Shown here piece after piece: positions 3,944-23,019 of a stretch of DNA of 32,000 bases (its first letter is position 1; the number at the start of each line of letters is the position of its first letter). Source of the stretch: Candidatus Scalinduaceae bacterium (lineage in GTDB: Bacteria > Planctomycetota > Brocadiia > Brocadiales > Scalinduaceae). The notes beneath the pieces were generated by a model. That model was not told the origin of the DNA, did no database searches, and worked only from the letters and a program-made list of their open reading frames with translations. A program made the position numbers and the translations under genes. The DNA lies in contig JBHHYH010000017.1 of the NCBI GenBank assembly GCA_046757465.1, positions 10,752-42,751 of the forward strand. The letters run 5' to 3'.

Positions 3944-3957
3944 AATAAGAGAATGAT

Positions 3958-4809: not shown

Positions 4810-4813
4810 AAAA

Positions 4814-6652
4814 ATGATAAAGAAATTCTATACGATTACGTTCCTAATATTTCTATTTGTAAACAACCTTGCAACTGTTCATGCAGATGAAATAGAGCTT
4901 ACGGCAAGTGTTGATAAGACTACGGTTGAATTAGGCAGCTACGTTCGTTTTACAATTGGTGTCCATGGCGCGTTTGATACAGATCAACCACAGCTTCCAC
5001 CGCTTGAAAGCTTTTCTCTTGGATACGGGCCGACTGTATCCACTCAGACAAAGATAGTAAACAACGTTGTATCCGTTTACCGTGGGTTCAGTTACGGATT
5101 AATTGCGAAGGAAAAAGGCAAATTTACAATAGGACCTATAACATTAGAATATAAAGGGAAGACATATAAATCAAACCCGGTTAATATAGAAGTTGTCGAA
5201 AGAGCACCGTTTGAAAACAAAGGGCGTAAGAGGGGAGACAAAGATATTGATATTTCCAAAAAGATATTTGTTGAACTCTCGACTGATAAGACAGAAGCCT
5301 ATATTTATGAACAGATTATCAGGTCTTTCAAGTTATATTTTCAAAAGGGATTGTCAATAGATGACCTTGAATATGTCCCTGCCTCAACTAAAAGTTTCCT
5401 TGTAGAAAAGCTTGGCGACGAGAGACGTTATGAGGAGGTTCGTAACGGAATACTCTACAGTGTAATAGAGCTTCGCACAGCGCTTTTTCCTGTAGTTTCG
5501 GGTGAGATAGAAATACCTCCCGCAAATTTCAAGTGCAATATCCTTATCAGACAACAACATAGAAGAAATTGGGACCCATTTGAAAATTCGCTATTTGATG
5601 AGTTCCTTGGTAGAAGTGAATATAGATATCCTGTGGAGAGAAGCACTAACTCATTAAAATTAAGAATAAAACCTTTACCAGTATCTGGGAAACCAGAAGG
5701 TTTTGCCGGCGCAGTGGGAAAGTTTACGATGGACGTTCTTGCAAAACCCACCGAAGTAAAAGTTGGCGACCCTATAACGTTATCCATAAACATTTCAGGA
5801 AAAGGGAACATACAAACGATTGGCGAACCGACACTTGCTCCTGAAGGCTTGGAGGGTTTTGAGCTTTATCCTGCTGAAGTCAATACAATTATCACAGATA
5901 GAGAAGAAGGCATTAAGGGTGAAAAATTGTTTAATAAAGTAATCGAGCCGCAACATGAAAATATTAAGGCAACTCCAGCAATATCATTCAGTTTCTTTGA
6001 TCCTGTATTAGAGAAATACCAGACTATTACCAGCAAACCAATCCCAATTATGGTAGAACAATCTGATATGGAGACACCCATACGCCTTTCACTTGAAGGC
6101 GTTGAAAAGACAAAGGCGCAGGCAAGAATATTGACCAAAGACATCCTGCCCATAATGTCTGATTTATACTCATTTAAAAATCAGGGGTTTGTTCTATATA
6201 AAAGGCCCTTGTTTATGGCCCTTATTTTTTTCACGCCAATACTCTTTGTAATAGCATGTATTTATGCACAGAGACACAGAGAACTGTTACAAACTGATAT
6301 GGGCTATGCAAGAAAAAGACGTGCGCCGTCTCAGATGAAAAAACAGCTTTCCAATACAAGACAGCTCATACAACATGGAAATCCTCAAGAATTTTACGCA
6401 GCACTTGCCAAAACGCTAACGGACTATATTGCAAATAAAACAGATTTACCACCGGCTTCTATCACACTCGAAAATGTCTCTGATATCTTAGGCAACCGCT
6501 GCGTTTCTTCCGGTACTGTAGAAAAACTTAAACAATGCCTTGAGTCGTGCGATCATGGTAGATTTTCTGCCCGTCATCACCCAAAGGATCAATTGGAAGA
6601 TGCGTTTAAGACTGCAAAAAACGTCATTAAGCTTTTAGAAAAACAATTATGA
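4814..6652 (+). CDS. batD: BatD-type oxygen-tolerance family protein
   Basis: The ORF runs 4754..6652. I prefer the M at 4814 because it directly precedes a signal peptide (MIKKFYTITFLIFLFVNNLATVHA) and removes a 56-nt overlap with batC. Large beta-rich ectodomain, C-terminal TM helix (LFMALIFFTPILFVIACIYA) and a cytoplasmic tail. Confidence 0.75.
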   Translation: MIKKFYTITFLIFLFVNNLATVHADEIELTASVDKTTVELGSYVRFTIGVHGAFDTDQPQLPPLESFSLGYGPTVSTQTKIVNNVVSVYRGFSYGLIAKEKGKFTIGPITLEYKGKTYKSNPVNIEVVERAPFENKGRKRGDKDIDISKKIFVELSTDKTEAYIYEQIIRSFKLYFQKGLSIDDLEYVPASTKSFLVEKLGDERRYEEVRNGILYSVIELRTALFPVVSGEIEIPPANFKCNILIRQQHRRNWDPFENSLFDEFLGRSEYRYPVERSTNSLKLRIKPLPVSGKPEGFAGAVGKFTMDVLAKPTEVKVGDPITLSINISGKGNIQTIGEPTLAPEGLEGFELYPAEVNTIITDREEGIKGEKLFNKVIEPQHENIKATPAISFSFFDPVLEKYQTITSKPIPIMVEQSDMETPIRLSLEGVEKTKAQARILTKDILPIMSDLYSFKNQGFVLYKRPLFMALIFFTPILFVIACIYAQRHRELLQTDMGYARKRRAPSQMKKQLSNTRQLIQHGNPQEFYAALAKTLTDYIANKTDLPPASITLENVSDILGNRCVSSGTVEKLKQCLESCDHGRFSARHHPKDQLEDAFKTAKNVIKLLEKQL

Positions 6653-7509
6653 GGAGAAAAAAAATATTAACATTTTTTATTCTTTTCCTTATGTTTCTTT
6701 CCAGTAGCCTGACTTTTGCTGGAGAGGTAACACGAGAAGAAGCTATTGATGTTTTCTTTAAAGCAAATGAAGAGTATAATGCTGCTCAAAAGGAAATGGC
6801 TGCAAAAAAAGAAAAAGAGGCTTTAGAAAAATTTGAACATGCCGCACGGCTTTATGAGAAACTGCTCGGGTCCAATTTTATAAGCGGCCAGATTTACTAT
6901 AACCTGGGTAATGCATATTATAGACAGGGGATGGCCGGGAGGGCAATACTACACTACCGCAGGGCAGAAAAACTGCTTCCAAGAAATGCCGACGTAAAGG
7001 CGAACATAGACTTATTGAAAAGCGATTTTGAAGATAAAGAGTCAATGCGCCAGATGCCGGAGATCCTGAAGATTATGTGTTTCTGGTATTTCTTTCTTAA
7101 TATAAATGAGATTACGATTCTTACTGTATATATGTATCTTGCTTTTATGGCATCTATTCTCTCAATCATTTTTTTAAGATTCCAATGGCTTAAAAAAATT
7201 TCCACTATTTTGGCATCATGTCTATTCGTGTTGGTTATTTCTCTTGGTCTAATGGCTTATAATCAATACTCTATTGAAAGAGGTGTGGTAATTGCCGACG
7301 AATGTGAGATAAGATACGGACCCGGCGAAGAATACGAACCCAAATTTGAGATACATGAAGGCGCGGAAGTTAAAATAGAGGAGGAAAGAAACAAGTGGTA
7401 TAAGGTGTATGTCTATGTGGATGTTGAAAGTATTCGTGATAATGAGGAACAGAAAGATATTGAGTTCAAAAAGGGCTGGATACCTAAAGCCAAAGTAGAG
7501 AAGATATGA
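6649..7509 (+). CDS. batE: BatE-type TPR / SH3b membrane protein
   Basis: ATGA start/stop overlap with batD. Signal peptide. TPR unit (YYNLGNAYYRQGMAGRAILHYRRAEKL). Three TM helices. C-terminal SH3b-like segment (KWYKVYVYV...KGWIPKAKV). Confidence 0.7.
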   Translation: MRRKKILTFFILFLMFLSSSLTFAGEVTREEAIDVFFKANEEYNAAQKEMAAKKEKEALEKFEHAARLYEKLLGSNFISGQIYYNLGNAYYRQGMAGRAILHYRRAEKLLPRNADVKANIDLLKSDFEDKESMRQMPEILKIMCFWYFFLNINEITILTVYMYLAFMASILSIIFLRFQWLKKISTILASCLFVLVISLGLMAYNQYSIERGVVIADECEIRYGPGEEYEPKFEIHEGAEVKIEEERNKWYKVYVYVDVESIRDNEEQKDIEFKKGWIPKAKVEKI

Positions 7510-10311: not shown

Positions 10312-11784
10312 CTAACTTACGGGAACACCATTTTCTACAGGGGCAGATACTGAAACAGCACTGCTCTTATACCAGTCTTGATAATAATCCCCGGAATCAT
10401 ATAATTTATGTAGATTTTCCAGTACCTGTTCAAAGACCTGTTGCCAGTCAGAACCAACCCTGAAGCCAAACATAGCGTTGCGTTTGCCATGCCTCGTACT
10501 ACCAATAGTCTTAAGTGACTTTCTAAAACGCATTCTCAGGTTGTCACCAGCATAAAGATGGTCATACATATATTGCATACCATCAATAAAATCTTCCAGG
10601 GTCATGTCAACAAATCTATGAACTACATGCGCAGTATCGTAATATTTCCAGTCAGCAGGATAATTCTTACGGAAAATCCTCTTTTCTGAATCCAATCTAT
10701 GATAAAGCTCAGTTTTTGGAAATGGACAATTGATACCAAAGGTAAGGACGTCAATGTTATTTTCCAATACAAATTCTGTCATCTTTTTGAATGAATCTTT
10801 ACCGTCTCCATCTGCTCCCAAGACTATGGACCCCCAAACAACAAGGCCGTGGTCATGAATCTTTTGAATGCAGTCATAATAATTATCCGTACCAAGTCTT
10901 AAATTGGTCTTTTTGTGCATCTTCTCCAGGACAGCTTCATTTGTCGATTCTATTCCACAGAGAAATCCAAAATTTCCACTCTTTGCCATCAGATCGAGCG
11001 CTTCCGCATCCTGCGATATATTAAGCGCCGTAAACCCTAGCCAATCCTTTTCGATACCTCTTTCTATCATCCCACGCCAGAGCGCCTTTGCCCTATTAGC
11101 AGAGTTCTTACTATGACCGTAGAAATTGTCCTCAGCAAACATTAGCCCCCTGTAATCGGTTGCCTCCATCTCATCCAGGACGTCTTCGTATGGCCTTTCC
11201 CTGAATTTTTTGCCCTGAAAGGTAGGGACGCTGCAGAAATCACAGTAATTCGGACAACCCTTCGTTGTAACAATAGAAGAGAACTTGTAATTATATTTCC
11301 TCTTCATGAGTTCTCTATTGGGAAAAACATGCTTCATTTCTGACAGGGCTGGCAACCCACCATTATAAACTTTTTTGAGCTGACCGTTTTCAAAATCCTT
11401 AATGACTTGAGGCCAGAGAGCCTCCGCTTCTCCCGTAAATATAGCATCAACGTATTTAGATGCTTCATCAGGCATTACGGATGCATGGATTCCGCCAATT
11501 ATCACGGTCATGCCTTTTTTTCTACATGCTTCAGCTATCTTGTACGCCCTTGCCACTTGATATGTAACAGAGGTCATACATACCAAATCAACAGGCTCAA
11601 AGGTTAATTCATCATTATCATCAAGGGCAAGTTCCAGATTCTCATCAATTACGTCAAACTCCCAGTCTCCGGGTGTAAGGGCGGAAATATATGCCAGATT
11701 TAAGGGCATTTGTACTATGACGGTTATACTTTCCTCACCATGCCTTCCCGGTGGGTGCGGATTGATAAGCATCATTTTTCTCAT
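10312..11784 (-). CDS. B12-binding-domain radical SAM enzyme
   Basis: N-terminal cobalamin-binding-like domain (DLVCMTSVTYQ...TVIIGGIHAS), followed by the radical SAM cluster motif CPNYCDFC (CxxxCxxC). Confidence 0.85.
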   Translation of the reverse strand: MRKMMLINPHPPGRHGEESITVIVQMPLNLAYISALTPGDWEFDVIDENLELALDDNDELTFEPVDLVCMTSVTYQVARAYKIAEACRKKGMTVIIGGIHASVMPDEASKYVDAIFTGEAEALWPQVIKDFENGQLKKVYNGGLPALSEMKHVFPNRELMKRKYNYKFSSIVTTKGCPNYCDFCSVPTFQGKKFRERPYEDVLDEMEATDYRGLMFAEDNFYGHSKNSANRAKALWRGMIERGIEKDWLGFTALNISQDAEALDLMAKSGNFGFLCGIESTNEAVLEKMHKKTNLRLGTDNYYDCIQKIHDHGLVVWGSIVLGADGDGKDSFKKMTEFVLENNIDVLTFGINCPFPKTELYHRLDSEKRIFRKNYPADWKYYDTAHVVHRFVDMTLEDFIDGMQYMYDHLYAGDNLRMRFRKSLKTIGSTRHGKRNAMFGFRVGSDWQQVFEQVLENLHKLYDSGDYYQDWYKSSAVSVSAPVENGVPVS

Positions 11785-11796
11785 TTTATTCTCCTC

Positions 11797-13242
11797 CTAA
11801 TTATTTAAAATCATATTCGCCACCCTCCAACCAGAGGATACAACCGCGCATACCCCTGGTCCCGGGTTTGTCCAATGTCCTGCTAGAAATAGATTATTGA
11901 AAGGTGTTTTATGTTGAAGTCTATTCGACCATGTCTGATCCACTGTAACAGCCCAACCGTAGGCAGCGCCTTTTGAATTGAGTGTATAGCGTTTAAGTGT
12001 CTTCGGTGTTGCTGCTTCGATAACGTCAATATGATTTCGGATGTTGGGAACAAGAGTTTCAAGATATTTTAATGTATATTCTTTCATTTCTTCTTTAAAG
12101 GTAACCCAATTTTCAATATCACCATAGTCTTCTTTTAAGGATACAACAACAGAAATTATTTGCTTTTCATCAGGGGCAAGACTTTTATCCGTTTTTGTCG
12201 GTACCGATATATAAAACCAACCATTATTGGAAAAACTTATATCATCTGACGTATGGTAAAAACCTCTTTTTAGTGCTTTTAAGTCAATGCCTTCATCAAG
12301 ACCCAGATACAATAGAAAAAATGAAATACTTTCCTTCATTGACTGGATCTTATGAAGATAGGAATCGTTAACTTCCTTTTCTTCTATTAACTCGGAAAAG
12401 GTCTGCTTTGGATCGATGTTTGATACAAAAACATCAGCAAAAAACTCTTTTCCTTTATTTGTCAAGACTCCTTTCACAAGTGTATCCCTTATATATATCT
12501 TGTTGACGGTAGAAGATAGCATAATTTGACCGCCATAGTCAATGAATTTTTGAGCAATCGCATCGGCGAAATTTTGGGTGCTGCCCACAGGGTAAAAAGC
12601 CCCATCCTTTAGATAATTTACCAGCATCTGGCACATACCAATAGCCGAGACTTCGTGAGGAGGCGAACCGATGTAGCCCCATTGTGCGGACAAGATAGCT
12701 TTAAGTTGCTCATCAGTAAAAAACTTATCTAACATTTCCTTGTAAGTAACATCTTGATATTTAGTTAGCAATTTACTTCGTTCAGCCCTAACCGTAGACC
12801 GATACAGTCCCACAAATTCTTTAAAAAAGGATGATAAATTTTCACTTTCAGATGTAAACCGTTGTTTTAGCAAATTGACGTAATCATCAATCTCGGCAGG
12901 AATATCTATAGAGAAAGAAGGAAAATTTATGCTGTCCATAGGATCAAGTCTTAAAAAATTAATATTTATATCAAGTTCTTTAAGGCTTCTACCGACTATA
13001 CTCCATTTTCCGCATCCACCAATGTGGTGAACCGCTGCGTCGAAAATAAAGCCTTTTCTTTTGAAAGAAGTGCAGTAACCCCCGGGTATATTATGTTGTT
13101 CAATTATCAAAACTTTTTTTCCACTTTTTGCTAAGAAAGCGCCGCAGATTAGTCCTCCAATCCCAGCCCCTAATATAATTACGTCATACTTGGATTGTAT
13201 TTTGGATTCATCTAAGGAAAAGTCACGTGTAGAAACGGCCAT
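11797..13242 (-). CDS. FAD-dependent oxidoreductase, CrtI / phytoene-desaturase-like
   Basis: Dinucleotide-binding motif DVIILGAGIGGLICGAFLAKSGKKVLIIE. The length (481 aa) and C-terminal GHWTNPGPG are typical of the CrtI family. Confidence 0.8.
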   Translation of the reverse strand: MAVSTRDFSLDESKIQSKYDVIILGAGIGGLICGAFLAKSGKKVLIIEQHNIPGGYCTSFKRKGFIFDAAVHHIGGCGKWSIVGRSLKELDININFLRLDPMDSINFPSFSIDIPAEIDDYVNLLKQRFTSESENLSSFFKEFVGLYRSTVRAERSKLLTKYQDVTYKEMLDKFFTDEQLKAILSAQWGYIGSPPHEVSAIGMCQMLVNYLKDGAFYPVGSTQNFADAIAQKFIDYGGQIMLSSTVNKIYIRDTLVKGVLTNKGKEFFADVFVSNIDPKQTFSELIEEKEVNDSYLHKIQSMKESISFFLLYLGLDEGIDLKALKRGFYHTSDDISFSNNGWFYISVPTKTDKSLAPDEKQIISVVVSLKEDYGDIENWVTFKEEMKEYTLKYLETLVPNIRNHIDVIEAATPKTLKRYTLNSKGAAYGWAVTVDQTWSNRLQHKTPFNNLFLAGHWTNPGPGVCAVVSSGWRVANMILNN

Positions 13243-13374
13243 ATAGTACCTTATTTCTTAAATCTTGAATAATTCTGGCAAAACATGTTCCTGACAGGCC
13301 CAGGAATATATATCAATAGAATTTCTCTGAAGTTAGGAAAGGTTAAGGGTTAGGAGGCCGGTGTAGTAGTCGGG

Positions 13375-13476
13375 CTAAGGTAAGGTAAAGATCGATTAAC
13401 TACTTAACCCACCCGCCCGTACCGAACTGTACGTTCGGGCGGGTTGACCAAACTGGCATCTTTACCCTAACCTAAC
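13375..13476. repeat. GC-rich imperfect palindrome inside the lipid operon
   Basis: Central hairpin acccgcccg (13411-13419) / cgggcgggt (13436-13444). It is flanked by ctaaggtaaggtaaagat (13375-13392) and atctttaccctaacctaac (13458-13476). Confidence 0.7.
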
Positions 13477-13555
13477 AACTTAACCAGATGTATATTAGTA
13501 CCTGTTTGGTTCTGGTCGTACCTTCGGCAGAGGCGCCGGGACGAACTTGTCCAGG

Positions 13556-14791
13556 CTAGGAGTATCTTGATATGATTAAGGATGAGATGTTGCCTGTATC
13601 TGAAAAGTCGTCAACCAGGACGTTTTTTACGTCTAATTTTCTGCTTTTATTAGGTACATAATCTAAATCGCATTCATCGTCCACTTCTTGATAATTTATT
13701 GTTGGAGGTATAACACTGTTGTTAATTGCCATTATACTTGCAACACTTTGCATTGCACCCGACGCGTCAAGGCACTCCCCCGTCATTGATTTTATAGCAC
13801 TTATGGGCACTTTCTTAGCATAACCACCAAAGTAGTCTTTAATAACCCTGGTTTCCATTCTATCACCCGTTATGCTGGAGTTTGCGCATGCAGATATGTA
13901 AGAGATGTCGTCAATATTAAGTTCCGCATCTTTCATTGCCAAAGAAATGCATCTTATACCCTCTTTAGTATCTAAATTGTCGTGGTAAATCTTTTTCGGA
14001 TTAAAGGTGTTTCCGTAACCCTTTATCTCGGCATAAATTCTTGCGTTTCTTTTTAATGCGTCCTCGAGCCTTTCTATCGCCATTAATGCAGCAGCTTCAC
14101 CAATTACGAAACCGTTGCGCCTTTTGTCATATGGTGTTGAAATCTCAATGGCGCTATCTTTGTAACCTGCTAATATTCCAGACCTGTAAGCTCCCCAAAA
14201 TATGTCCGGGGTTAAACCGTGAACTCCCCCAGCCAAAACCGCCTTCACCCTGCCTAACCTCAGGAAATCAGAGGCGTAAATAATAGCATCAAGGCCACTG
14301 GTAACTCCAGTAGATATAGTGGAGTTAAGGCCCGTGGCTTTGCAAAATATAGAGGCCCTGCTTGCAGGAGCATTTAGAACTGTATTTGGGAAGGCCATTG
14401 GATTAACATAATTAGGACCTTCCCTTAACGCTTCAAAGTCAAATGTACTGATACTATCTATACTGCCATAAGTAGAACCGATTACAATTCCTAAATCTTC
14501 CTCAGTATAGATTTCGTGCGTTATTTTAGCATCGTCCATTACAAGCTTTGCGGCTGAAGATGCCAATAGCGAAGTCCTGTCTATATGTCGTATTCCTTTC
14601 TTGCCCAAAAACACCTTTGCATCAAAATCTGATATCTCTCCCGCCTTCTTGCTCCTGTATTTGGATACGTCAAATAGTGTAATATCCTTTATCCCGGAAA
14701 CACCTTTTGTCAAATTGCTCCAAAACTCGTCTTTATTTACACCGATTGGTGACAAAATGCTAATACCTGTTATAACTAATCGAGTATCCAT
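13556..14791 (-). CDS. Ketosynthase-like protein lacking the catalytic Cys (chain-length-factor-like partner)
   Basis: Full-length thiolase-fold KS homolog. The active-site TAC-AAG is replaced by STGVTSG (Val163, codon 14303-14305). AHGTGT is replaced by ACANSS, and GHT by GEC. Confidence 0.8.
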   Translation of the reverse strand: MDTRLVITGISILSPIGVNKDEFWSNLTKGVSGIKDITLFDVSKYRSKKAGEISDFDAKVFLGKKGIRHIDRTSLLASSAAKLVMDDAKITHEIYTEEDLGIVIGSTYGSIDSISTFDFEALREGPNYVNPMAFPNTVLNAPASRASIFCKATGLNSTISTGVTSGLDAIIYASDFLRLGRVKAVLAGGVHGLTPDIFWGAYRSGILAGYKDSAIEISTPYDKRRNGFVIGEAAALMAIERLEDALKRNARIYAEIKGYGNTFNPKKIYHDNLDTKEGIRCISLAMKDAELNIDDISYISACANSSITGDRMETRVIKDYFGGYAKKVPISAIKSMTGECLDASGAMQSVASIMAINNSVIPPTINYQEVDDECDLDYVPNKSRKLDVKNVLVDDFSDTGNISSLIISRYS

Positions 14792-14873
14792 TACAATTGT
14801 TCCGTTGAAAAATTATCCCATAAAAAAAAGTTAATGGCCTTGTTCTAAGATACCATTAACAATTTAAATACTA

Positions 14874-14920
14874 AAGGGACAGGCTTCCTTTTTTATAAAA
14901 AAGATGCCTGTCCCTCTAAA
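14874..14920 (-). repeat. Conserved intergenic hairpin element (copy 2, KS to KS-like gap)
   Basis: agggacaggc...gcctgtccct is a perfect 10-bp stem flanking a T6-ata-A6 core. It has the same orientation relative to transcription as copy 1. Confidence 0.8.
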
Positions 14921-14951
14921 CATATATGAACTTGCTGAATTCTTGCACTTT

Positions 14952-16169
14952 TTAACCCGTAAACTTTTTTAATACAAGACAACTATTGTTACCGCCAAAA
15001 GCGTAAGCATTATTTAAGGCTATATTTACTTGCATCTCACGTTTTACATTAGGAACAAAATCTAGATCACACTCCGGATCTTTAGTTTCATAGTTTATTG
15101 TGGGAGGCACTATGTCTTCTTTAACAGCTAATGCACATGCGATAGCTTCTATTGCACTGGCAGCTCCCATTGTATGCCCTATCATAGATTTTATAGAAAT
15201 CACAGCCAAACGCTTTGAATGTTCTCCAAATACTTTCTTAATAGATATTGTTTCGGCCTTGTCATTAGCAACGGTTCCAGTACCATGTGCACTTATATGC
15301 TGAACATCCTCAGGCTTGATGTTGGCGTCTTTTAAGGCCTTTCTCATCGCAGACACGACACCATTTCCCTCTGGTTGTGGAATTGTGATATGATATCCGT
15401 CACAGCTTAGACCGTAACCCAGAATTTCTGCATAGATATTTGCATTCCTTGCTAATGCATCTTCCATCGATTCTAATACCAGCATCCCGGCGCCTTCACC
15501 AATTAACATTCCTTTTCTATTTTTGTCAAAAGGCTGGCATACCTCTGGCGCAATAGCATTCAGTTTGCTAAAACCAACGTAAGCTACTTTAGAAAAAGGA
15601 TCCGTACCGCCGGCTACCATAATATCTGCTCTTCCCAATCTTATCAGGTCGCATGCATAGCCAATAGCATAATTCCCTGCGGCACATGCAGTGGGAATTA
15701 TTGTATTTGGGCCCTCAAACCCGAATTCGATAGCTATGTTTGATGGAATATTGTTGCATGGGTGCTTAAGGAATAGATCTGCATCTACGTTATCATCTCC
15801 CTTTTCATATCTTAATTGGTTTACCCTTTCTAAAATTTGAATTTCACCCGCAGTTGTGCCGATTGAAACACCGACTCTTTCAAGATCAACATTTTTTACG
15901 TCAATTTTAGAGTCATCTAAGGCTAGCTTAGTTGCTGCGATTGCAAATTGTGATCCCTTGCCAACTTTTCTTGAACCGTTACTTATATAGTCTTCATACT
16001 TGAAATCTTTAACTTCACAACCGTTATGTACTTTAAAATCAGATGTGTCAAACGCCTTGACTTCCGAGGCTCCGGATACGCCGGAAGTTAATGCATCCCA
16101 GAAAATATCTTTATTGCATCCTATGGGGGATATTACACCTACACCAGTAATTACAATTCTTTTATCCAT
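14952..16169 (-). CDS. fabF: Beta-ketoacyl-ACP synthase II (FabF-type), catalytically intact
   Basis: Active-site PTACAAG (Cys162, codon 15684-15686). His motifs YHITIP and [19 protein letters not shown]. Confidence 0.9.
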
Positions 16170-16231
16170 AAATTTTTTTTATCTAAATTGAGCGATTTAT
16201 ATATTTCACTTGTCATTTCGACTCCTTCACT

Positions 16232-16360
16232 CCTGTCATTCCGAACGAAGAGAGGAATCCGCTTTGGGCTCGGTATTATATTACGCAAAATCCAAGATTA
16301 CGGGAGAAATCTTAACGCTTGCCGTTGTAGAAGATTTCTCGCTACACTCGAAATAACAGG
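16232..16360. repeat. REP/MITE-like inverted-repeat element (GTCATTC...GAATC family)
   Basis: cctgtcattccgaacgaagagaggaatc (16232-16259) is an imperfect inverted repeat of gatttctcgctacactcgaaataacagg (16333-16360). Confidence 0.65.
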
Positions 16361-16482
16361 TCAAAACGAGTATTTTCACCTAATAATGATTGAAGATAAT
16401 GGTTATGCTATGTCTCATAATTTAAACGGAATAACAATAAAATGAAAAACAAATCACTCAATTTAAGTTATATTACCGAGAA

Positions 16483-16938
16483 TCAATCCTTTAGAGATTC
16501 TCTTTCGGCTACACCAAAACTTAATGTAGCCTTCGAAACGATCTTTTCTCCCACTCTGGCTATGCCCTTCACTATCGCTGCATTAGAAACAACTTTTTCG
16601 GTATTGATTTCTAAAATAAGTTGGTCGCCTGGAAAGACTGGTTTTGAGAAGCGGACGTTAGCCGAGGCCAACAAAAAGACCTTGTCTTTGTCCTTGTCAG
16701 CATCAAAACTCTTTCTAAAGAGTATGATTGATGCTTGGGCCATGGCTTCTAAGATTAAGACTCCTGGCATTATGGCAAAATCCGGAAAGTGTCCAACGAA
16801 GAACGATTCATTACCGGAAATATTCTTTAAACAAACAATTTTGCTTTCCTTCTGAAACTCAACAACTTTATCAATAAATAAGAACGGATATTTTTGAGGA
16901 ATCAACTTTCTTATTTCCTCAAAGCTCAACATTTGCAA
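16483..16938 (-). CDS. fabZ: 3-hydroxyacyl-ACP dehydratase (FabZ-type)
   Basis: Hotdog-fold motifs IPQKYPFLFIDKV and VGHFPDFAIMPGVLILEAMAQ. Confidence 0.9.
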   Translation of the reverse strand: MQMLSFEEIRKLIPQKYPFLFIDKVVEFQKESKIVCLKNISGNESFFVGHFPDFAIMPGVLILEAMAQASIILFRKSFDADKDKDKVFLLASANVRFSKPVFPGDQLILEINTEKVVSNAAIVKGIARVGEKIVSKATLSFGVAERESLKD

Positions 16939-17014
16939 ATACCTTTCTTGTTAAAGTTATAAGCAGACAGATTTAAAAATTTACGAAATAGGCGGGAATA
17001 CAAAAGAAATGTGG

Positions 17015-17284
17015 TTATTTCTTGGTATTTTCTTCCAGTATTGATTTCGTCATCCCAATCGTAGCGTTTAGTGATGTAATGTCTACTAATTTTTCTTCAG
17101 GAATTTGAATTTTGTATTTTTTCTCAATAAGTGCCAGAATTTCCAATGCCAGCAAGGAATCTATTTCTAACTCCTTAAAAAAATCAGAGTCTCTTTTTTC
17201 CCATATTTCACTTTCCTCTAACTCAGTTACTTCAGCCACAATTGATGTAACCTCTTTATCTATATTATCTGCAGTCAATATCAT
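17015..17284 (-). CDS. Dedicated acyl carrier protein
   Basis: 89 aa and acidic. Phosphopantetheine attachment motif LEIDSLLALE (DSL). First gene of the minus-strand cassette. Confidence 0.85.
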   Translation of the reverse strand: MILTADNIDKEVTSIVAEVTELEESEIWEKRDSDFFKELEIDSLLALEILALIEKKYKIQIPEEKLVDITSLNATIGMTKSILEENTKK

Positions 17285-17571
17285 CCCTCCTCAAAAAATA
17301 CCAATCTACAAAAATCTAACAAATATTAACAACGAACATTTAGTGAAAAAAGAGTGTTCTTAAACGATGGTTTTTCCCTATGCTGATTACCAATACAGAG
17401 CTTATGACAGTACGGTCTGGCGTTAAAATACATTTAAAAAAAATCTGAAAAGGGAAAAATAACAAACTTACATCGATATGTCAATAACAATCTCAAGACA
17501 ATTATAGGACTAATCGAGTTGACTTGATGTATGCATTTTGCTATTGTTTTTAATCAAGGTAAGTAATTTAA

Positions 17572-20239: not shown

Positions 20240-20498
20240 ATATCTTTATCAACTCTTCTTTTTTCCCACGTGTTAATTTCTTAATATCCCTTTCGGCATG
20301 TAAGACGGTTTTATAGTATCTATATTTCTTTGCATAAACCAGTTTTACCGGCAACCTCGCTCTTAGATATTTTGCTCCATTTCCTTTATTGTGTAATTTA
20401 ATCCTTTCTTCTAAGTTCTTAGTGCTACCTGTATAGTACGTTCCATCAATGCACTGAACGATATAAACATGGAATATGCCTTTACGTTTAAACCTCAT
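20223..20498 (-). CDS. GIY-YIG nuclease superfamily protein (small stand-alone type)
   Basis: HVYIVQCIDGTYYTGSTKNLEERIKLHN matches the GIY..YIG..R..H/N core of short GIY-YIG proteins. Confidence 0.8.
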   Translation of the reverse strand: MRFKRKGIFHVYIVQCIDGTYYTGSTKNLEERIKLHNKGNGAKYLRARLPVKLVYAKKYRYYKTVLHAERDIKKLTRGKKEELIKIYENKT

Positions 20499-20658
20499 GT
20501 GTTACAAAAATTATTTTATTTTTTGAATATTTGTAGCGGGAAATTCCAACAGGGTTTACTTGTAAGATTGTACGTATATTAAAAACGGTGTGATATAATG
20601 TCAACAGTTATAGTTGCTTTTAAAGAAATAAGTATAGTGTTTACCCGACGATTATTTT

Positions 20659-20877
20659 GGCGGGCCTGCCCGCCGTCTTGCAGACTGTGCCATAATCCAG
20701 AAAAAGGGCATTTTGCCATTCTGAACTTGTCGGGTTTCAGAATCTAATGATTCCAATAACTTAGCAACCTAAGAGATCCCGCCCCCACAGCTTGCTCGCC
20801 CTGTAGGCTAGAACGCCGTACGGGGCTAGCAGTGGGGGGGGATGACAATTGTGACACAGTCTGTTGTTTGGCGGGTC
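20659..20877. other. Composite structured GC-rich intergenic region (possible ncRNA or nested REP cluster)
   Basis: Hairpin ggcggg-cctg-cccgcc (20659-20674). Long-range pair cagactgtg (20681-20689) / cacagtctg (20855-20863). Internal hairpins at 20715-20745 and 20771-20846. Confidence 0.4.
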
Positions 20878-20879
20878 TA

Positions 20880-20960
20880 TCCATGATTCGCAGTTTTAAC
20901 AAATTCTTTGGTGTCAATGGGCTTTTCTCTTTTCTTCATTATCACTGGAAGTTCCTTTGT
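20880..20960 (-). pseudogene. Relic of a receiver-domain gene 3' end
   Basis: The minus-strand translation directly after the VanZ-like stop reads ...MKKREKPIDTKEFVKTANHG*. KPIDTKEFVKT is identical to the C-terminus of the REC genes at 22569 and 23098. The DNA ttttaacaaattctttggt.tcaatggg is shared. Confidence 0.5.
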
Positions 20961-20966
20961 ATAAGA

Positions 20967-21599
20967 TTAAGCATTCCGTCTCATTCTATAATCTTCAATC
21001 CATTTCTGGCGGTCATGAAGCTTCTTTTTATAAAAAGACATTTTAAGTCGCCACTTTTCTAATCTTGGACAAATTACAAGCATTATAGCAAGCTCTGATA
21101 AAATACCAGTAAATACATCTGTTTTAATGTCTAGCAGGCTAAAATCTCTTTCTGGAATAAATCTTTGAACATATTCATCTGCGCAACCTGCTATGCCGAC
21201 AAAAATTGCACACCATAAATATAAAGCTGTCGTAGGATTATAAAACCGCAATACCCTGAATAACAAAAACGCTAAGATGCCGTATACGATGATATGTAAT
21301 TTATCCTGGAAGTCTTCCATATCCGCCAAACAACTTAATCCTATAAACAAAATTACAATTAGAGCCAGCAACCTGGGGATTTTATACCTCTTATTAGTAG
21401 CTATGACATAAATTGCTAAGGCTATACCGATAATTCCTATAACTGCATAGACCGAAAGAGTAACTGGAAAGGAGGTAGAAGGACTGCTTTCAGTGATATT
21501 TTGAACTATATATACCGAAAAAGGAAGTATAGCAAAAATAACTACCAGGTAGGCGAGCAGGAAAAACCAATCAATAGAAATATAAAAAATGCCTCTCAA
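20967..21599 (-). CDS. VanZ-like integral membrane protein
   Basis: Five to six TM helices. C-terminal DEYVQRFIPERDFSLLDIKTDVFTG resembles the VanZ family motif. Confidence 0.55.
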   Translation of the reverse strand: MRGIFYISIDWFFLLAYLVVIFAILPFSVYIVQNITESSPSTSFPVTLSVYAVIGIIGIALAIYVIATNKRYKIPRLLALIVILFIGLSCLADMEDFQDKLHIIVYGILAFLLFRVLRFYNPTTALYLWCAIFVGIAGCADEYVQRFIPERDFSLLDIKTDVFTGILSELAIMLVICPRLEKWRLKMSFYKKKLHDRQKWIEDYRMRRNA

Positions 21600-21602: not shown

Positions 21603-22478
21603 CTATGCCCTTTCTTCCCGCATCAAGTGAAGATGCTTAGTTAAAGTAGCATCTATCTGATCCATAGAGAAAGGTTTTATAATAATATCATCAGCTCCCA
21701 AGCTTGTTACGTCTTTAGTGACTAGAGGATCCTTCACAGATGTTACGATGATGACCCGAGTCTTTGTTTTTAATTTTTTTATCTCTTTTAATATCTCCAT
21801 ACCGTCTATCTTAGGCATAACCAAATCTAACATTACAATATCAGGTTTTACTTTTGAGAAAAGTGTCATGGCCTTCTCTGGATTGCAGCAGGTATGGACT
21901 TCAAAACCCCGGGGCGTTAACATGGCTTCTAATAAATCACAACTTGATTTTTCATCATCTATAGCGAGTATTTTTATTTCGGCTGGTTTGTATTTTTCCT
22001 TTATACCCGATTTTTGTGCTTTGTCCGCATGTTGATTTGTGCCTTCTGTCTTTTTGGTCCCTTCTCTTTTAAGCTCACCTGCACTCCTTGGTAATGGGCG
22101 AATTTTGCGTCTTTTAAGTACTTCCCCTATCTTCGTTTTTAATTGTTCGGCGGTAAGCGGCTTTGTAAGATAGTCTTCGCTATATCGTTGCATTGCTTTC
22201 ATCTTTGAACGTTCGCTGTCTTCAGCTGTTAGCATAACAACAGGTATGGGCATGGTTTTGTCATCCTTTTTAAGAGATTTTAGGACTTCGAAACCATCCA
22301 CTTTCGGCATTCTGATATCAAGTAGTATCAAATCCGGTTTAAGCCTTCGAGCAGCATAATGACCGCGTTTTCCTTCATTTTCTACCATAACCTGATATTC
22401 ACCACTGCCTTCAAGACTCGCCTTTACAACCTCTGTAACATTTTTGTCATCATCGATAATCAGTATCTTTTTTTCCAT
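21603..22478 (-). CDS. Tandem receiver (REC-linker-REC) response regulator without output domain
   Basis: Two receiver cores (ILIIDDD...DLILLDIRMP...LTKP and ILAIDDE...DIVMLDLVMP...IIKP) joined by a K/E-rich linker. Confidence 0.85.
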   Translation of the reverse strand: MEKKILIIDDDKNVTEVVKASLEGSGEYQVMVENEGKRGHYAARRLKPDLILLDIRMPKVDGFEVLKSLKKDDKTMPIPVVMLTAEDSERSKMKAMQRYSEDYLTKPLTAEQLKTKIGEVLKRRKIRPLPRSAGELKREGTKKTEGTNQHADKAQKSGIKEKYKPAEIKILAIDDEKSSCDLLEAMLTPRGFEVHTCCNPEKAMTLFSKVKPDIVMLDLVMPKIDGMEILKEIKKLKTKTRVIIVTSVKDPLVTKDVTSLGADDIIIKPFSMDQIDATLTKHLHLMREERA

Positions 22479-22490
22479 TATATTAGACCT

Positions 22491-22961
22491 CCCTTTTTAA
22501 AGACCCCTGCCTCAAATGCCAAAATTGCTTTCTTAACCCTTTCTGTACCCGTCTCCCTTGCCTTTTTTTTAATTCTTTAAAAACCTGGCAATCGTTTTAA
22601 CAAATTCTTTGGTATCAATGGGTTTGGAGATGAACGCATCACAACCAGCATTCATTATCATTTTTTTTTCTTCCTTCATTGTGCTGGCTGAACAGACTAT
22701 AAGAGTTATATTCTTTGTTATGGAATATTGTTTAAACTTTCTAACTAATTCTACCCCTCCTATATCCGGAAGCCCAGAGTCCAATAATATTAGATCCGGT
22801 ATTTCTGACTTAGCCATGTTAAACCCCTCTTTTCCATTGACAGCTTGAAGGATTAAATAACCCTCATCCTCAAGGAGGTCACTGAACAACTCCATATTCA
22901 TTAGATTGTCTTCGATGATAAGTATCCTTCCTTTAGCCATTCTTCCTCCTTAAGGGAATAG
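22491..22961. repeat. Direct repeat copy A (471 bp, period 529 bp)
   Basis: Nearly identical to 23020-23490. Contains the whole REC gene, its downstream intergenic sequence and the last ~27 bp of the kinase gene. Confidence 0.9.
22569..22940 (-). CDS. Single-domain response regulator (CheY-like), duplicate copy A
   Basis: ILIIEDN...DLILLDSGLPDIGG...ISKP. Differs from copy B at only two residues (G4/E4, L13/A13). Confidence 0.85.
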   Translation of the reverse strand: MAKGRILIIEDNLMNMELFSDLLEDEGYLILQAVNGKEGFNMAKSEIPDLILLDSGLPDIGGVELVRKFKQYSITKNITLIVCSASTMKEEKKMIMNAGCDAFISKPIDTKEFVKTIARFLKN

Positions 22962-23019
22962 ATTCTATCATCTCTATAAAGCCCTCTACCAGCTTTGGCA
23001 TCCCATTGAGTTCCCTTCC

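What the first reader, a model, noticed from the sequence alone, without database searches (positions are those of the whole stretch)
10312..17284. Self-contained ACP / FabZ / KS / dead-KS / CrtI-like / B12-radical-SAM cassette (ladderane-type lipid cluster with unsolved chemistry)
Six co-directional minus-strand genes encode the following:
- a dedicated ACP (DSL motif);
- a FabZ dehydratase;
- a catalytically intact FabF-type ketosynthase;
- a ketosynthase paralog without the active-site Cys;
- a phytoene-desaturase-like flavoenzyme (GxGxxG);
- a cobalamin-domain radical SAM enzyme (CPNYCDFC).

No ketoreductase, enoyl reductase or acyltransferase lies in the cassette, so it is not an ordinary FAS operon. 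The logic resembles a type II polyene-forming system (KS/CLF-like pair plus dehydratase) combined with a desaturase and a radical C-C or C-H chemistry enzyme. From memory, this is the gene content of one of the candidate ladderane (concatenated cyclobutane) lipid clusters proposed from anammox comparative genomics. To my knowledge the enzymology has never been demonstrated. This is the strongest candidate in the window for undescribed biochemistry.
Basis: partly seen in the sequence, partly recalled or inferred. Interest (0 to 1): 0.85.

Follow-up and report, generated by a model that had tools for sequence, protein, structure and literature searches.

The report
Known candidate ladderane lipid gene cluster
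This is the already published six-gene "Cluster I", which anammox bacteria are thought to use for their ladder-shaped membrane lipids. Its key chemistry is still unsolved, but the cluster is not a new discovery, and collinear look-alikes with an added reductase gene occur in bacteria labelled as non-anammox phyla.

Summary
Six co-directional minus-strand genes at 10312-17284 encode an ACP, a FabZ, an intact FabF-type KS, a KS paralogue without the Cys-His-His triad, a CrtI-like flavoenzyme and a B12-domain radical SAM enzyme. No KR, ER or AT lies anywhere in the 32 kb.

The cassette is the orthologue, in a Scalinduaceae-like anammox bacterium, of Kuenenia "Cluster I" (kuste3603-3608). Rattray et al. 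proposed it in 2009 and it has been studied since: amxACP, amxFabZ and the amxFabF2/amxFabFmut KS/CLF heterodimer have solved structures. Co-expression of all six genes in E. coli gave no ladderanes. Only the flavoenzyme and the rSAM remain uncharacterised. Novelty: already known.

The side result was less expected. The same gene order, with a dead second KS and the "amx-specific" FabZ residues, occurs in high-GC contigs labelled Acidobacteria, Vicinamibacteria, Myxococcota and Planctomycetota. There a KR follows the rSAM wherever the contig reaches. Sometimes a second rSAM-KS-CLF module is fused in. This conflicts with published statements that the cluster is exclusive to ladderane producers. 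It also suggests that the anammox cassette is not self-contained. The rSAM does not belong to NCBIfam "rSAM_ladder_B12" and groups with no characterised enzyme.

The parts
17015..17284 (-). Dedicated acyl carrier protein (amxACP orthologue), DSL phosphopantetheine site
   Evidence: Pfam PP-binding 48.8 bits. Best PDB matches are the anammox-specific ACPs 7qv0_D, 7auf_A and 9s5i_E (E 1e-34 to 2e-37); the next best is mycobacterial AcpM at 3e-08.
16483..16938 (-). 3-hydroxyacyl-ACP dehydratase (amxFabZ orthologue); probable true start is the ATG at 16932
   Evidence: Pfam FabA 90.8 bits; NCBIfam FabZ NF000582 150.3 bits, above the cutoff of 113. Best PDB hits are amxFabZ structures 8ayi and 7qv0 (E 6e-75), against about 1e-31 for canonical FabZ. 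It carries the published amx signature: Ile at S. brodae position 69 (canonical Gly) and non-basic residues at 96 and 115 (PMC10139942).
14952..16169 (-). Catalytically intact FabF-type ketosynthase (amxFabF2 orthologue)
   Evidence: Pfam ketoacyl-synt N and C. NCBIfam NF005589 446 bits, above the cutoff of 387. Cys/His/His/Lys intact in the alignment with E. coli FabF.
13556..14791 (-). Ketosynthase paralogue without the catalytic triad (amxFabFmut orthologue, chain-length-factor-like partner)
   Evidence: Cys to Val, His to Cys, His to Glu. Best PDB hit is 9s5h_C, a chain of the amxFabF heterodimer entry, at E 1.5e-180; canonical FabF scores 6e-78. Heterodimer function is shown in bioRxiv 10.64898/2026.05.19.726425.
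11797..13242 (-). CrtI-family FAD flavoenzyme (PDH; kuste3607 orthologue), substrate unknown
   Evidence: Pfam Amino_oxidase and NAD_binding_8. NCBIfam crtI_fam 166 bits, below the cutoff of 238. Nearest solved structure is CrtI 4dgk at E 4e-40. Homologues are 95% identical in unnamed contigs and 74-83% identical in Scalinduaceae/Scalindua. Kuste3607 does not replace CrtI in vivo (PMC4790861).
10312..11784 (-). Class-B-architecture radical SAM enzyme (kuste3608 orthologue), reaction unknown
   Evidence: Pfam Radical_SAM 57.2 bits; B12-binding 34.5 bits (cutoff 32.1); DUF4070. CPNYCDFC Cys residues are invariant in 99 homologues. AlphaFold2 model pLDDT 93.3. Nearest structures are AprD4, MgmA, TsrM, TokK and CysS at 12-19% identity. 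TIGR04072 scores 89.8 bits, below the cutoff of 360.
17456..17484 (-). Promoter-like site upstream of the ACP gene (TTGACA-17-TATTTT with TG)
   Evidence: Consensus scan, 10 of 12 matches. The total number of such sites in the region (19) is not above the shuffled expectation (23.6), so this is only a candidate.
14872..14918 (.). 22-nt-arm hairpin between the two KS genes; a copy of a dispersed REP-like palindrome
   Evidence: Inverted repeat I4, 86% complementary, 3-nt loop. One arm recurs at window 2868-2899 at 97% over 32 nt. Absent from relatives, where the two KS genes overlap.
13243..13555 (-). 313-nt structured intergenic spacer between the dead KS and PDH genes
   Evidence: GC 45% against 39% for the window. 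RNA fold z = -3.4. No Rfam match. No counterpart in other loci.
16170..16482 (-). 313-nt spacer between the FabZ and live KS genes, bracketed by a 15-nt inverted repeat (16184-16198 / 16451-16465)
   Evidence: Inverted repeat I20, 93% complementary. RNA fold z = -5.2. No Rfam match. Relatives have about 30 nt here.

Best explanation
**What it is.** The cassette is the orthologue, in a Scalinduaceae-like anammox bacterium, of Kuenenia stuttgartiensis Cluster I (kuste3603-3608).

**Steps shown for orthologues in the literature.**
- The ACP is a dedicated carrier that insulates the pathway from housekeeping fatty-acid synthesis. amxFabZ acts on amxACP-bound substrates but not on canonical-ACP-bound ones.
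- The live KS and the dead KS form a KS/CLF-type heterodimer. It decarboxylates malonyl-amxACP (priming) and, in crosslinking assays, favours C6-C8 acyl chains.
- amxFabZ dehydrates (3R)-3-hydroxyacyl-amxACP of up to about C8.

**Steps inferred here.**
- A ketoreductase must act in trans, because the KR-bearing relatives encode one directly after the rSAM.
- With no enoyl reductase in the unit, the module should deliver short unsaturated (enoyl or polyenoyl) acyl-amxACP.
- The CrtI-like flavoenzyme would then desaturate, isomerise or saturate a C=C bond.
- The class-B-type radical SAM enzyme would abstract H and form or rearrange C-C bonds on the tethered chain.
- In anammox bacteria the end product is most likely the ladderane moiety or a committed precursor. 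The cassette probably works with the separate rSAM-KS-CLF module (kuste2803-2805 type) rather than alone.
For: **Gene content and motifs:**

**Orthology to solved amx proteins:** FabZ E 6e-75, dead KS E 1.5e-180, ACP E 2e-37.

**Anammox host:**
- rSAM is 78-80% identical to Kuenenia and Brocadia proteins and 93% identical to a Brocadiaceae-labelled MAG.
- PDH is 83% identical to a Scalinduaceae protein.

**amxFabZ signature residues:** present in the window and in 40 of 40 group A loci.

**Biochemistry of orthologues:** PMC10139942 (FabZ chain length and ACP specificity) and bioRxiv 10.64898/2026.05.19.726425 (heterodimer, decarboxylation, C6-C8 preference).

**KR in trans:**
- No KR in the scanned ORFs of the window.
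- A KR directly follows the rSAM in 11 of 11 group B loci whose contig reaches that far.

**rSAM linked to KS/CLF pairs:** every sampled branch of the rSAM family except one stand-alone copy (L088) sits beside a live KS and a dead KS.

**Two modules fused in one locus:** L004, L086, L091, L165. They are adjacent in the anammox-type locus L003.
Against: - No experiment links any protein of the cluster to ladderanes. Expression of kuste3603-3608 in E. coli gave no new fatty acids, although all six proteins were detected (PMC4790861).
- According to PMC10139942, published isotope labelling fits none of the proposed routes for the ladder part.
- The C6-C8 preference can also be read as synthesis of the linear part only.
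- Collinear homologues in non-anammox phyla show that this type of cassette is not diagnostic of ladderane production.
- The B12-binding domain score is marginal (34.5 bits against a cutoff of 32.1). The closest structure, AprD4, is to my knowledge not cobalamin-dependent, so even the cofactor is uncertain.
Confidence: 0.6

Rival explanations
1. The cassette makes a more generic short, modified acyl-ACP building block or a specialised lipid or polyketide. This product would be shared with the Acidobacteria-, Myxococcota- and Planctomycetota-labelled relatives and would not be a ladderane. The cyclobutane-forming steps of anammox bacteria would then be encoded elsewhere.
For: - The same gene order, a dead second KS and the FabZ tunnel and docking substitutions occur in 18 group B loci with GC 54-76%.
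- About 36 group B PDH clusters form a clade separate from the anammox PDHs.
- Heterologous expression of kuste3603-3608 gave no ladderane (PMC4790861).
- Accessory genes typical of secondary-metabolite type II systems recur around relatives: SRPBCC polyketide cyclase, muconolactone-isomerase-like protein, ferredoxin, ECH and FabH.
Against: - The anammox clade is distinct. Its PDHs score at most 598 bits against the group B profile, whereas group B members score 762-932 bits.
- The cassette is present in every anammox lineage sampled, including Hypogeohydatales.
- The literature reports the cluster as among the most highly expressed lipid clusters (PMC4790861, PMC10139942).
- No lipid data exist for group B hosts, so they could make related strained or cyclic lipids.
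Confidence: 0.25
2. The radical SAM enzyme is a cobalamin-dependent C-methyltransferase. The cassette would then make methyl-branched acyl chains, which from my own knowledge are abundant in anammox bacteria (for example 10-methylhexadecanoic acid). It would not be forming rings.
For: - The rSAM has class B architecture.
- Most of its nearest structural neighbours are methyltransferases: MgmA, TsrM, TokK and CysS.
- Its NCBIfam sub-threshold hits include PhpK, HpnR and the Mmp10-type methylase.
- By my own arithmetic, methylation at C2 of a C8 intermediate followed by four elongations would place the methyl group at C10 of a C16 acid. This has not been tested.
Against: - All these similarities are at 12-19% identity and far below the family cutoffs.
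- The best structural and profile match is AprD4, a dehydratase.
- Alpha-methylation of beta-keto intermediates normally needs no radical chemistry.
- This reading gives no role to the flavoenzyme or to the missing ER.
Confidence: 0.1
3. It is an ordinary aryl-polyene or other known type II PKS/FAS cluster that has been misread as special.
For: - It has a KS/CLF pair plus a dehydratase without an ER.
- Precomputed Pfam hits of the relatives' dehydratases include ApeI-like and ApeP-like models.
- antiSMASH "ladderane" calls are known in many phyla (PMC9902471).
Against: - The scanned ORFs of the window show no aryl-starter activation, second ACP, second DH, KR, acyl/glycosyltransferase or export genes.
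- No known aryl-polyene or type II PKS system that I am aware of contains the CrtI-like plus class B rSAM pair.
- The proteins are nearest to the solved anammox-specific structures by a wide margin.
Confidence: 0.03

Closest known systems
Kuenenia stuttgartiensis Cluster I, kuste3603-3608 (amxACP, amxFabZ, amxFabF2, amxFabFmut, PDH, B12-rSAM); Rattray 2009, Javidpour 2016, Dietl 2023, Granatino 2026
   Same: The six gene functions and their order are identical. The dead KS has the same class of substitutions, with Cys replaced by Val. The FabZ has Ile69 and non-basic residues at 96 and 115. The rSAM is 79% identical to the Kuenenia protein. The PDB amx structures are the best matches for FabZ, ACP and the dead KS.
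   Different: The host is a different lineage (Scalinduaceae-like, GC 39%). The window has unusually long structured spacers (313, 160 and 313 nt) where relatives have abutting or overlapping genes.
Group B cassettes found here in high-GC contigs labelled Acidobacteria, Vicinamibacteria, Myxococcota and Planctomycetota (L001, L004, L086, L090, L091, L138-L151, L166)
   Same: The gene order ACP-DH-KS-deadKS-PDH-rSAM is the same. The second KS always lacks Cys. FabZ position 69 is Ile or Ala, never Gly, and the ACP-docking residues are non-basic.
   Different: Identity is only 33-59% per protein. A KR always follows the rSAM. A FabH is often present, and sometimes a second rSAM-KS-truncated CLF module. 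The PDHs form a separate clade. The product and lipids are unknown.
kuste2803-2805-type module (B12-rSAM, FabF, non-canonical KS)
   Same: The rSAM is a paralogue of the same family (49-50% identity) and is again paired with a live KS and a dead KS. The dead KS has the Phe/Asn/Lys/Glu pattern that Rattray reported for Kuste2805 (PMC2649909).
   Different: This module has no ACP, FabZ or PDH. In some genomes it is followed by an OYE-type reductase, ECH, KR and a muconolactone-isomerase-like gene. It is not present in this window.
Highly reducing type II PKS KS/CLF systems (ishigamide Iga11/Iga12, aryl polyene ApeO/ApeC)
   Same: These also use a KS plus an inactive partner that sets chain length, a dedicated ACP, and a DH without an ER, giving polyenes. 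The authors of the heterodimer study draw the same analogy (bioRxiv 10.64898/2026.05.19.726425).
   Different: Those systems encode their own KR and have no CrtI-like flavoenzyme or radical SAM enzyme. Sequence similarity is at the general FabF/KS level (actinorhodin KS E 9e-53, against 1.5e-180 for amxFabFmut).
NCBIfam TIGR04072 rSAM_ladder_B12 (lipid biosynthesis B12-binding/radical SAM protein)
   Same: It is also a B12-domain radical SAM enzyme found in FAS-like clusters, and it is named after ladderanes.
   Different: It is a different family. The window rSAM scores 89.8 bits and Kuenenia's orthologue 87 bits against a cutoff of 360. A Geobacter-labelled locus protein scores 405.7 bits.
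Solved class-B-type radical SAM enzymes (AprD4 6fd2, MgmA 9ccb, TsrM 6wte, TokK 7kdx, CysS 9n1b, OxsB 5ul2) and CrtI (4dgk)
   Same: The rSAM shares the overall architecture: an N-terminal Rossmann domain, a radical SAM barrel and a C-terminal helical domain (TM 0.57-0.69). The flavoenzyme shares the CrtI fold family.
   Different: The rSAM is 12-19% identical to these enzymes and has no clear nearest subfamily. The PDH falls below the CrtI family cutoff, and its Kuenenia orthologue fails to desaturate phytoene (PMC4790861).

Membership tests
Anammox Cluster I (kuste3603-3608 type) | Six genes in the order ACP, FabZ, FabF2, FabFmut, PDH, B12-rSAM on one strand | tested here: met
   The same order is seen in 52 group A loci.
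Anammox Cluster I (kuste3603-3608 type) | Second KS lacks the Cys-His-His triad (Cys replaced by Val or Thr; His replaced by Asn, Cys or Glu) | tested here: met
   Val/Cys/Glu in the window. Group A distribution at the Cys position: V32, T10, E6, I1, F1.
Anammox Cluster I (kuste3603-3608 type) | amxFabZ signature: Ile at position 69, Ser/Thr at 96, Val/Ile at 115 (S. brodae numbering; PMC10139942) | tested here: met
   Ile/Ser/Val in the window.
Anammox Cluster I (kuste3603-3608 type) | Proteins closest to the experimentally studied amx proteins | tested here: met
   PDB best hits are 8ayi/7qv0 (FabZ), 9s5h_C (dead KS) and 7qv0_D/7auf (ACP), with large margins over canonical enzymes.
Anammox Cluster I (kuste3603-3608 type) | Host is an anammox bacterium (hydrazine synthase, ladderane lipids) | not testable with these tools
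   No hzs or hdh genes were found in the scanned ORFs of the 32 kb window. Host identity is inferred only from the best hits to Scalinduaceae, Scalindua and Brocadiaceae MAGs.
Anammox Cluster I (kuste3603-3608 type) | Cluster makes ladderanes | not testable with these tools
   Never shown for any member. The E. coli co-expression was negative (PMC4790861).
NCBIfam TIGR04072 rSAM_ladder_B12 | Score at or above the curated cutoff of 360 bits | tested here: not met
   89.8 bits. The Kuenenia orthologue P0009 scores 87 bits. As a positive control, the second rSAM of L018 scores 405.7 bits.
Class B (cobalamin-dependent) radical SAM enzymes | CxxxCxxC cluster motif and radical SAM core | tested here: met
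   C177/C181/C184 are invariant in 99 sequences. Pfam Radical_SAM 57.2 bits.
Class B (cobalamin-dependent) radical SAM enzymes | N-terminal cobalamin-binding Rossmann domain | tested here: met
   Pfam B12-binding 34.5 bits against a cutoff of 32.1, which is marginal. The fold matches TsrM, TokK, CysS and OxsB, and also AprD4.
Class B (cobalamin-dependent) radical SAM enzymes | Actually binds and uses cobalamin | not testable with these tools
   The best structural match, AprD4, is to my knowledge cobalamin-independent, so the domain alone does not settle the cofactor.
CrtI phytoene desaturase family (TIGR02734) | Score at or above the curated cutoff of 238.1 bits | tested here: not met
   166.3 bits. 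All CrtI, CrtD, CrtISO and CrtO equivalogs are far below their cutoffs.
CrtI phytoene desaturase family (TIGR02734) | Desaturates phytoene | not testable with these tools
   The orthologue Kuste3607 did not complement a crtI deletion in a lycopene pathway (PMC4790861).
Housekeeping FabF (TIGR03150 equivalog) | Score at or above the cutoff of 493.75 bits | tested here: not met
   The live KS scores 461 bits and the dead KS 347 bits. The live KS passes only the broader subfamily NF005589 (446 bits, cutoff 387).
FabZ (NF000582 / TIGR01750) | Score at or above the cutoff, with the catalytic His and Glu | tested here: met
   NF000582 150.3 bits, above 113. TIGR01750 149.8 bits, just below 155.15. 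His and Glu are present.
Aryl polyene (APE) clusters | Own KR, two dehydratases (ApeI/ApeP), two ACPs, aryl-starter activation, and acyltransferase and export genes (feature list from my own knowledge) | tested here: not met
   The cassette has one DH and one ACP. No KR or any of the other functions is found in the scanned ORFs of the window.

The most novel reading that the evidence does not exclude
The ACP-DH-KS-CLF-PDH-rSAM unit is the core of a widespread, uncharacterised pathway that performs radical C-C bond formation (ring building) on short ACP-tethered unsaturated chains. The anammox ladderane cluster would be one reduced, split-up branch of this pathway.

Its KR-bearing, sometimes two-module relatives occur in bacteria labelled Acidobacteria, Vicinamibacteria, Myxococcota and non-anammox Planctomycetota. 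These would make still-undiscovered cyclobutane-containing or otherwise carbocyclic lipids.

Because these versions are complete in one locus and come from faster-growing, high-GC lineages, they would offer the first tractable route to reconstituting ladderane-type chemistry.
Probability: 0.15. Interest if true: 0.85.

Novelty: already known. Interest (0 to 1): 0.35.

Why it matters
Ladderane biosynthesis is a long-standing open problem. These are concatenated cyclobutanes with no known enzymology, made by organisms without genetics. This cassette is the field's prime suspect.

Finding it again in another anammox genome adds little. It has been known since 2009, and four of its six proteins have been characterised.

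The comparative result is more useful:
- The cassette type is not exclusive to anammox bacteria.
- Its relatives carry the ketoreductase that the anammox version lacks, wherever the contig reaches.
- Some relatives fuse it with the second rSAM-KS-CLF module.

This gives one possible reason why expressing kuste3603-3608 alone failed, namely missing partners. It also names a fuller gene set to try, and it offers alternative source organisms for the rSAM, which has so far resisted heterologous production.

Tried and rejected
**Genome scan.** It is not a census, and known anammox genomes are missing from it. I replaced it with a PDH-based metagenome scan.

**Riboswitch or known RNA in the spacers.** I tested whether the long intergenic spacers hide a cobalamin riboswitch or another known RNA. 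Rfam gave nothing at gathering thresholds and only chance-level hits at E up to 1.

**Repeated element in the two 313-nt spacers.** I tested whether the two spacers are copies of one element. They share no similarity. Only the hairpin in the 160-nt spacer recurs, at window 2868-2899.

**Internal terminators and promoters.** The counts equal the shuffled expectation, so I make no claim about sub-operons.

**Cultured host for the KR-bearing version.** None was found. All named group B hits are MAGs.

**Aryl-polyene reading.** Rejected for lack of the hallmark genes.

**TIGR04072 membership.** Rejected on score.

**NJ tree of the rSAM family.** I used it only for coarse grouping. I did not interpret its deeper branch order, such as independent versus shared rSAM duplications.

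Full report
**1. Observation.**

Pfam confirms every domain above its gathering score:

| Gene | Coordinates | Pfam domains |
|---|---|---|
| rSAM | 10312-11784 | B12-binding, Radical_SAM, DUF4070 |
| Flavoenzyme (PDH) | 11797-13242 | Amino_oxidase, NAD_binding_8 |
| Dead KS | 13556-14791 | ketoacyl-synt N and C |
| Live KS | 14952-16169 | ketoacyl-synt N and C |
| Dehydratase | 16483-16938 | FabA-like |
| ACP | 17015-17284 | PP-binding |

The quoted motifs (CPNYCDFC, DSL, GxGxxG) are in the translations.

Aligned to E. coli FabF, the upstream KS keeps Cys/His/His/Lys. The downstream paralogue has Val/Cys/Glu at the triad positions.

The cassette has no KR, ER or acyltransferase. Neither do the 20 other ORFs I scanned. 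Those ORFs encode:
- on one side, a Bat/VWA operon, PilZ, inositol monophosphatase and a ROK kinase;
- on the other side, TrpF, MiaB, response regulators and a PAS histidine kinase.

**2. Identity.**

The literature settles what this is. Rattray et al. 2009 (PMC2649909) described the unusual FAS clusters of Kuenenia stuttgartiensis. These include kuste3605/3606 (a FabF and a non-canonical FabF without active-site residues) and kuste3607 (phytoene-desaturase-like).

Javidpour et al. 2016 (PMC4790861) list the genes as follows:

| Locus | Product |
|---|---|
| kuste3603 | ACP |
| kuste3604 | FabZ |
| kuste3605 | FabF |
| kuste3606 | non-canonical FabF |
| kuste3607 | phytoene desaturase |
| kuste3608 | radical SAM enzyme |

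Dietl et al. 2023 (PMC10139942) and Granatino et al. 2026 (bioRxiv 10.64898/2026.05.19.726425) call it the putative ladderane cluster, or "Cluster I".

The window's proteins are the orthologues:
- The FabZ matches the amxFabZ structures 8ayi and 7qv0 at E 6e-75, against about 1e-31 for canonical FabZ.
- The dead KS matches a chain of the amxFabF heterodimer entry, 9s5h_C, at E 1.5e-180, against 6e-78 for FabF.
- The ACP matches amxACPs at E 1e-34 to 2e-37, against 3e-08 for the next ACP.
- The FabZ carries the published amx signature: Ile69 where canonical FabZ has Gly, and non-basic residues at 96 and 115.

The host is an anammox bacterium of a Scalinduaceae-like lineage:
- The rSAM is 93% identical to a groundwater MAG labelled Brocadiaceae (L006).
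- The PDH is 83% identical to "Ca. Scalinduaceae bacterium" and 74-80% to Scalindua species.
- Window GC is 39%.

**3. What is already known about how it works.**

- amxFabZ dehydrates (3R)-3-hydroxyacyl chains of up to about C8, and only when they are carried by amxACP (PMC10139942).
- The two KS homologues form a KS/CLF-like heterodimer. It decarboxylates malonyl-ACP and favours C6-C8 in crosslinking (bioRxiv 10.64898/2026.05.19.726425).
- Kuste3607 does not replace CrtI (PMC4790861).
- Co-expression of kuste3603-3608 in anaerobic E. coli, with all six proteins detected, produced no new fatty acids (PMC4790861).
- No experiment links the cluster to ladderanes. The 2026 review of lipid-modifying radical SAM enzymes still lists three unproven mechanisms (PMC13459092).

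**4. The two uncharacterised enzymes.**

*The rSAM.*
- Its best NCBIfam hit is TIGR04072 "rSAM_ladder_B12", but at 89.8 bits against a cutoff of 360.
- Kuenenia's own orthologue scores 87 bits. A Geobacter-labelled locus protein scores 405.7 bits.
- So the curated "ladder" family is a different enzyme, of the type shared with Deltaproteobacteria. The Cluster I rSAM has no curated family.
- A profile of 16 homologues finds only weak, core-only matches in the PDB. The best is AprD4 at E 3e-13.
- A high-confidence AlphaFold2 model (pLDDT 93.3, pTM 0.90) is closest to AprD4 (TM 0.69, 16% identity). Next come MgmA, TsrM, TokK, CysS, MiaB and OxsB.
- The enzyme therefore has class B architecture but groups with no characterised enzyme.
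- The B12-binding Pfam score is marginal (34.5 against 32.1). To my knowledge AprD4 does not use cobalamin, so cofactor use is unproven.

*The flavoenzyme.*
- It is nearest to CrtI (4dgk, E 4e-40).
- It falls below the CrtI family cutoff (166 bits against 238).

**5. Distribution: the unexpected part.**

The rSAM search returned two tiers. One tier, at 64-90% identity, comes from named anammox genera. A large second tier, at 49-60%, includes proteins labelled Acidobacteria, Myxococcota and Planctomycetota.

I examined genomic contexts, ran a PDH-seeded metagenome scan and made my own ORF/BLAST tabulation. These show that the order ACP-DH-KS-KS-PDH-rSAM is invariant. The loci fall into two groups:

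| | Group A | Group B |
|---|---|---|
| Loci | 52, including the window and all named anammox lineages | 18 |
| PDH identity to window | at least 53% | 37-50% |
| GC | 35-55% | 54-76% |
| KR after the rSAM | none co-directional | present in 11 of 11 loci whose contig reaches |
| Other features | | often an opposite-strand FabH; in L004, L086, L144 and L145 a second rSAM, a third KS and a truncated CLF-like gene before the KR |

Group B has these source labels:
- Acidobacteria bacterium 13_1_40CM_2_60_7
- Vicinamibacteria
- Myxococcota
- Planctomycetota

Group B is not mis-binned anammox DNA:
- Its GC is far higher than that of the anammox loci.
- Its PDHs form their own clade, at 762-932 bits against at most 598 for anammox PDHs.

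Group B shares the supposedly anammox-specific features:
- The second KS lacks Cys in 14 of 14 cases.
- FabZ position 69 is Ile (6) or Ala (4), never Gly.
- Positions 96 and 115 are never basic.

No cultured host was found.

In the papers held by the library, the cluster is called "encountered exclusively" in, or "unique to", ladderane producers (PMC10139942; bioRxiv 10.64898/2026.05.19.726425). The only contrary remarks are Rattray's similar clusters in Deltaproteobacteria and loose antiSMASH "ladderane" calls in other phyla (PMC2649909; PMC9902471). Neither involved a gene-by-gene comparison.

**6. A second module.**

The remaining tier-2 rSAMs sit in rSAM-KS-KS modules. Their dead KS has the Phe/Asn/Lys/Glu pattern that Rattray reported for Kuste2805 (L003, L008, L009). 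These modules are sometimes followed by an OYE-type reductase, ECH, KR and a muconolactone-isomerase-like gene (L003, L089).

The placement of this module relative to the cassette varies:
- It lies next to the cassette in the anammox-type locus L003.
- It is fused into the same locus in L004, L086, L091 and L165.
- It is absent from this window.

In a coarse NJ tree, the anammox Cluster I rSAMs form one clade nested in a family. Every sampled branch of that family except one stand-alone copy (L088) neighbours a live KS and a dead KS.

The conserved functional unit therefore seems to be rSAM plus KS/CLF, and the window's cassette is probably not self-contained.

**7. Mechanism: what is shown and what is inferred.**

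*Shown for orthologues:*
- a dedicated ACP;
- priming by the KS/CLF heterodimer and short-chain elongation;
- short-chain dehydration.

*Inferred:*
- a KR acts in trans;
- because no ER is present, the products are short enoyl or polyenoyl-amxACPs;
- the flavoenzyme adjusts a double bond (desaturation, isomerisation or saturation);
- the rSAM initiates radical C-C chemistry on the tethered chain.

I rate identity with Cluster I at about 0.97. I rate a role in ladderane or ladderane-precursor synthesis at about 0.6.

The rivals are:
- a generic product shared with group B, with the ladder-forming steps encoded elsewhere (0.25);
- a cobalamin-dependent methyltransferase making branched chains (0.10);
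- an ordinary aryl-polyene or type II cluster (0.03).

**8. Local peculiarities.**

Relatives have abutting or overlapping genes. The window instead has spacers of 313, 160 and 313 nt:
- The 160-nt spacer holds a 22-nt-arm hairpin (14872-14918). One arm recurs at 2868-2899, so this is a REP-like dispersed palindrome.
- Both 313-nt spacers fold better than shuffled controls (z = -3.4 and -5.2).
- One 313-nt spacer is bracketed by a 15-nt inverted repeat.
- None of the spacers matches Rfam.

Their significance is unknown.

**9. Verdict.**

- "Self-contained" and "never demonstrated" need correcting.
- Novelty: already known.
- Interest is modest for the finding as given. It rises somewhat because collinear, KR-bearing homologues occur outside anammox bacteria, which bears directly on how the open ladderane problem might be attacked.

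Noticed in passing
L001 5476-12338; L090 6903-13674; L091 6881-13684; L004 5338-15838; L086 3993-14371; L166 6859-13655; L138, L140, L146, L149, L151: Collinear ACP-DH-KS-deadKS-PDH-rSAM cassettes occur in high-GC (54-76%) contigs labelled Acidobacteria, Vicinamibacteria, Myxococcota and Planctomycetota. A KR always follows the rSAM. They share the "amx-specific" FabZ residues and the dead second KS. This conflicts with published statements that the cluster is exclusive to ladderane producers.
   Followed up: yes
L003 10001-18040; L008 9923-14277; L009 10001-14191; L089 10001-16113; L004 11480-15086; L086 10001-13628: A second module recurs: a paralogous B12-rSAM, a live KS and a dead KS with the Kuste2805-type Phe/Asn/Lys/Glu pattern. 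It is sometimes followed by an OYE reductase, ECH, KR and a muconolactone-isomerase-like gene. It is fused to the cassette in non-anammox loci, adjacent to it in L003, and absent from this window.
   Followed up: partly
L003 (ENA ERZ25071401 contig_1, 5.1 Mb; GC 34%) 3035-4498 and 20394-21464: One anammox-type genome carries two tier-1 copies of the Cluster I rSAM (70% and 72% identical to the window's) about 16 kb apart, with a transposase gene between them.
   Followed up: no
L165 4101-21437 (JGI 3300082212): A large variant supercluster is built around the same core. An FGE-sulfatase-like gene and an SRPBCC polyketide-cyclase-like gene are inserted between the DH and the KS. Two rSAMs, a MIase-like gene, a ferredoxin, ECH, KR, three KS pairs and a FabH follow. 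An SRPBCC cyclase gene, a MIase-like gene and a ferredoxin also flank L166.
   Followed up: no
window 14872-14918 and 2868-2899: A near-perfect 22-nt-arm hairpin lies between the two KS genes. One arm is repeated (97% over 32 nt, opposite orientation) in an unrelated intergenic region between two VWA-domain genes. This is a dispersed REP-like palindrome.
   Followed up: partly
window 13243-13555 and 16170-16482: Two spacers of exactly 313 nt lie inside the cassette and share no sequence similarity with each other. Both fold better than shuffled controls (z = -3.4 and -5.2). The second is bracketed by a 15-nt inverted repeat (16184-16198 / 16451-16465), like a small inserted element. Relatives have about 0-30 nt at these junctions. 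There is no Rfam match.
   Followed up: partly
L018 12275-13855 compared with window 10312-11784: The NCBIfam model named rSAM_ladder_B12 (TIGR04072) recognises an rSAM in a Geobacter-labelled locus (405.7 bits). It does not recognise the Cluster I rSAM of the window (89.8 bits) or of Kuenenia (87 bits). The "ladder" name is attached to a different enzyme family from the one now favoured for ladderanes.
   Followed up: yes
window 16932-16938: The FabZ ORF is listed with a TTG start at 16938. An ATG two codons downstream (16932) matches the N-termini of the solved amxFabZ proteins better.
   Followed up: partly
window 185-7509: A BatA-BatD-type operon lies upstream on the plus strand: DUF58, an unknown gene, VWA/BatA, VWA, TPR, BatD and TPR. 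Pfam names the BatA N-terminal domain 'Aerotolerance regulator N-terminal'. This is notable in a presumed strict anaerobe.
   Followed up: no
window 21603-28847: A dense signalling block lies on the minus strand. It has three response-regulator genes (one with two receiver domains), a 947-aa histidine kinase with multiple PAS domains, and a HAMP/Cache sensor.
   Followed up: no
L092 (LAZR01008328.1): The closest relative of the window's cassette is a short metagenome contig. Its live KS is 98% identical, its dead KS 94% and its PDH 95%. This is closer than any named genome found.
   Followed up: no
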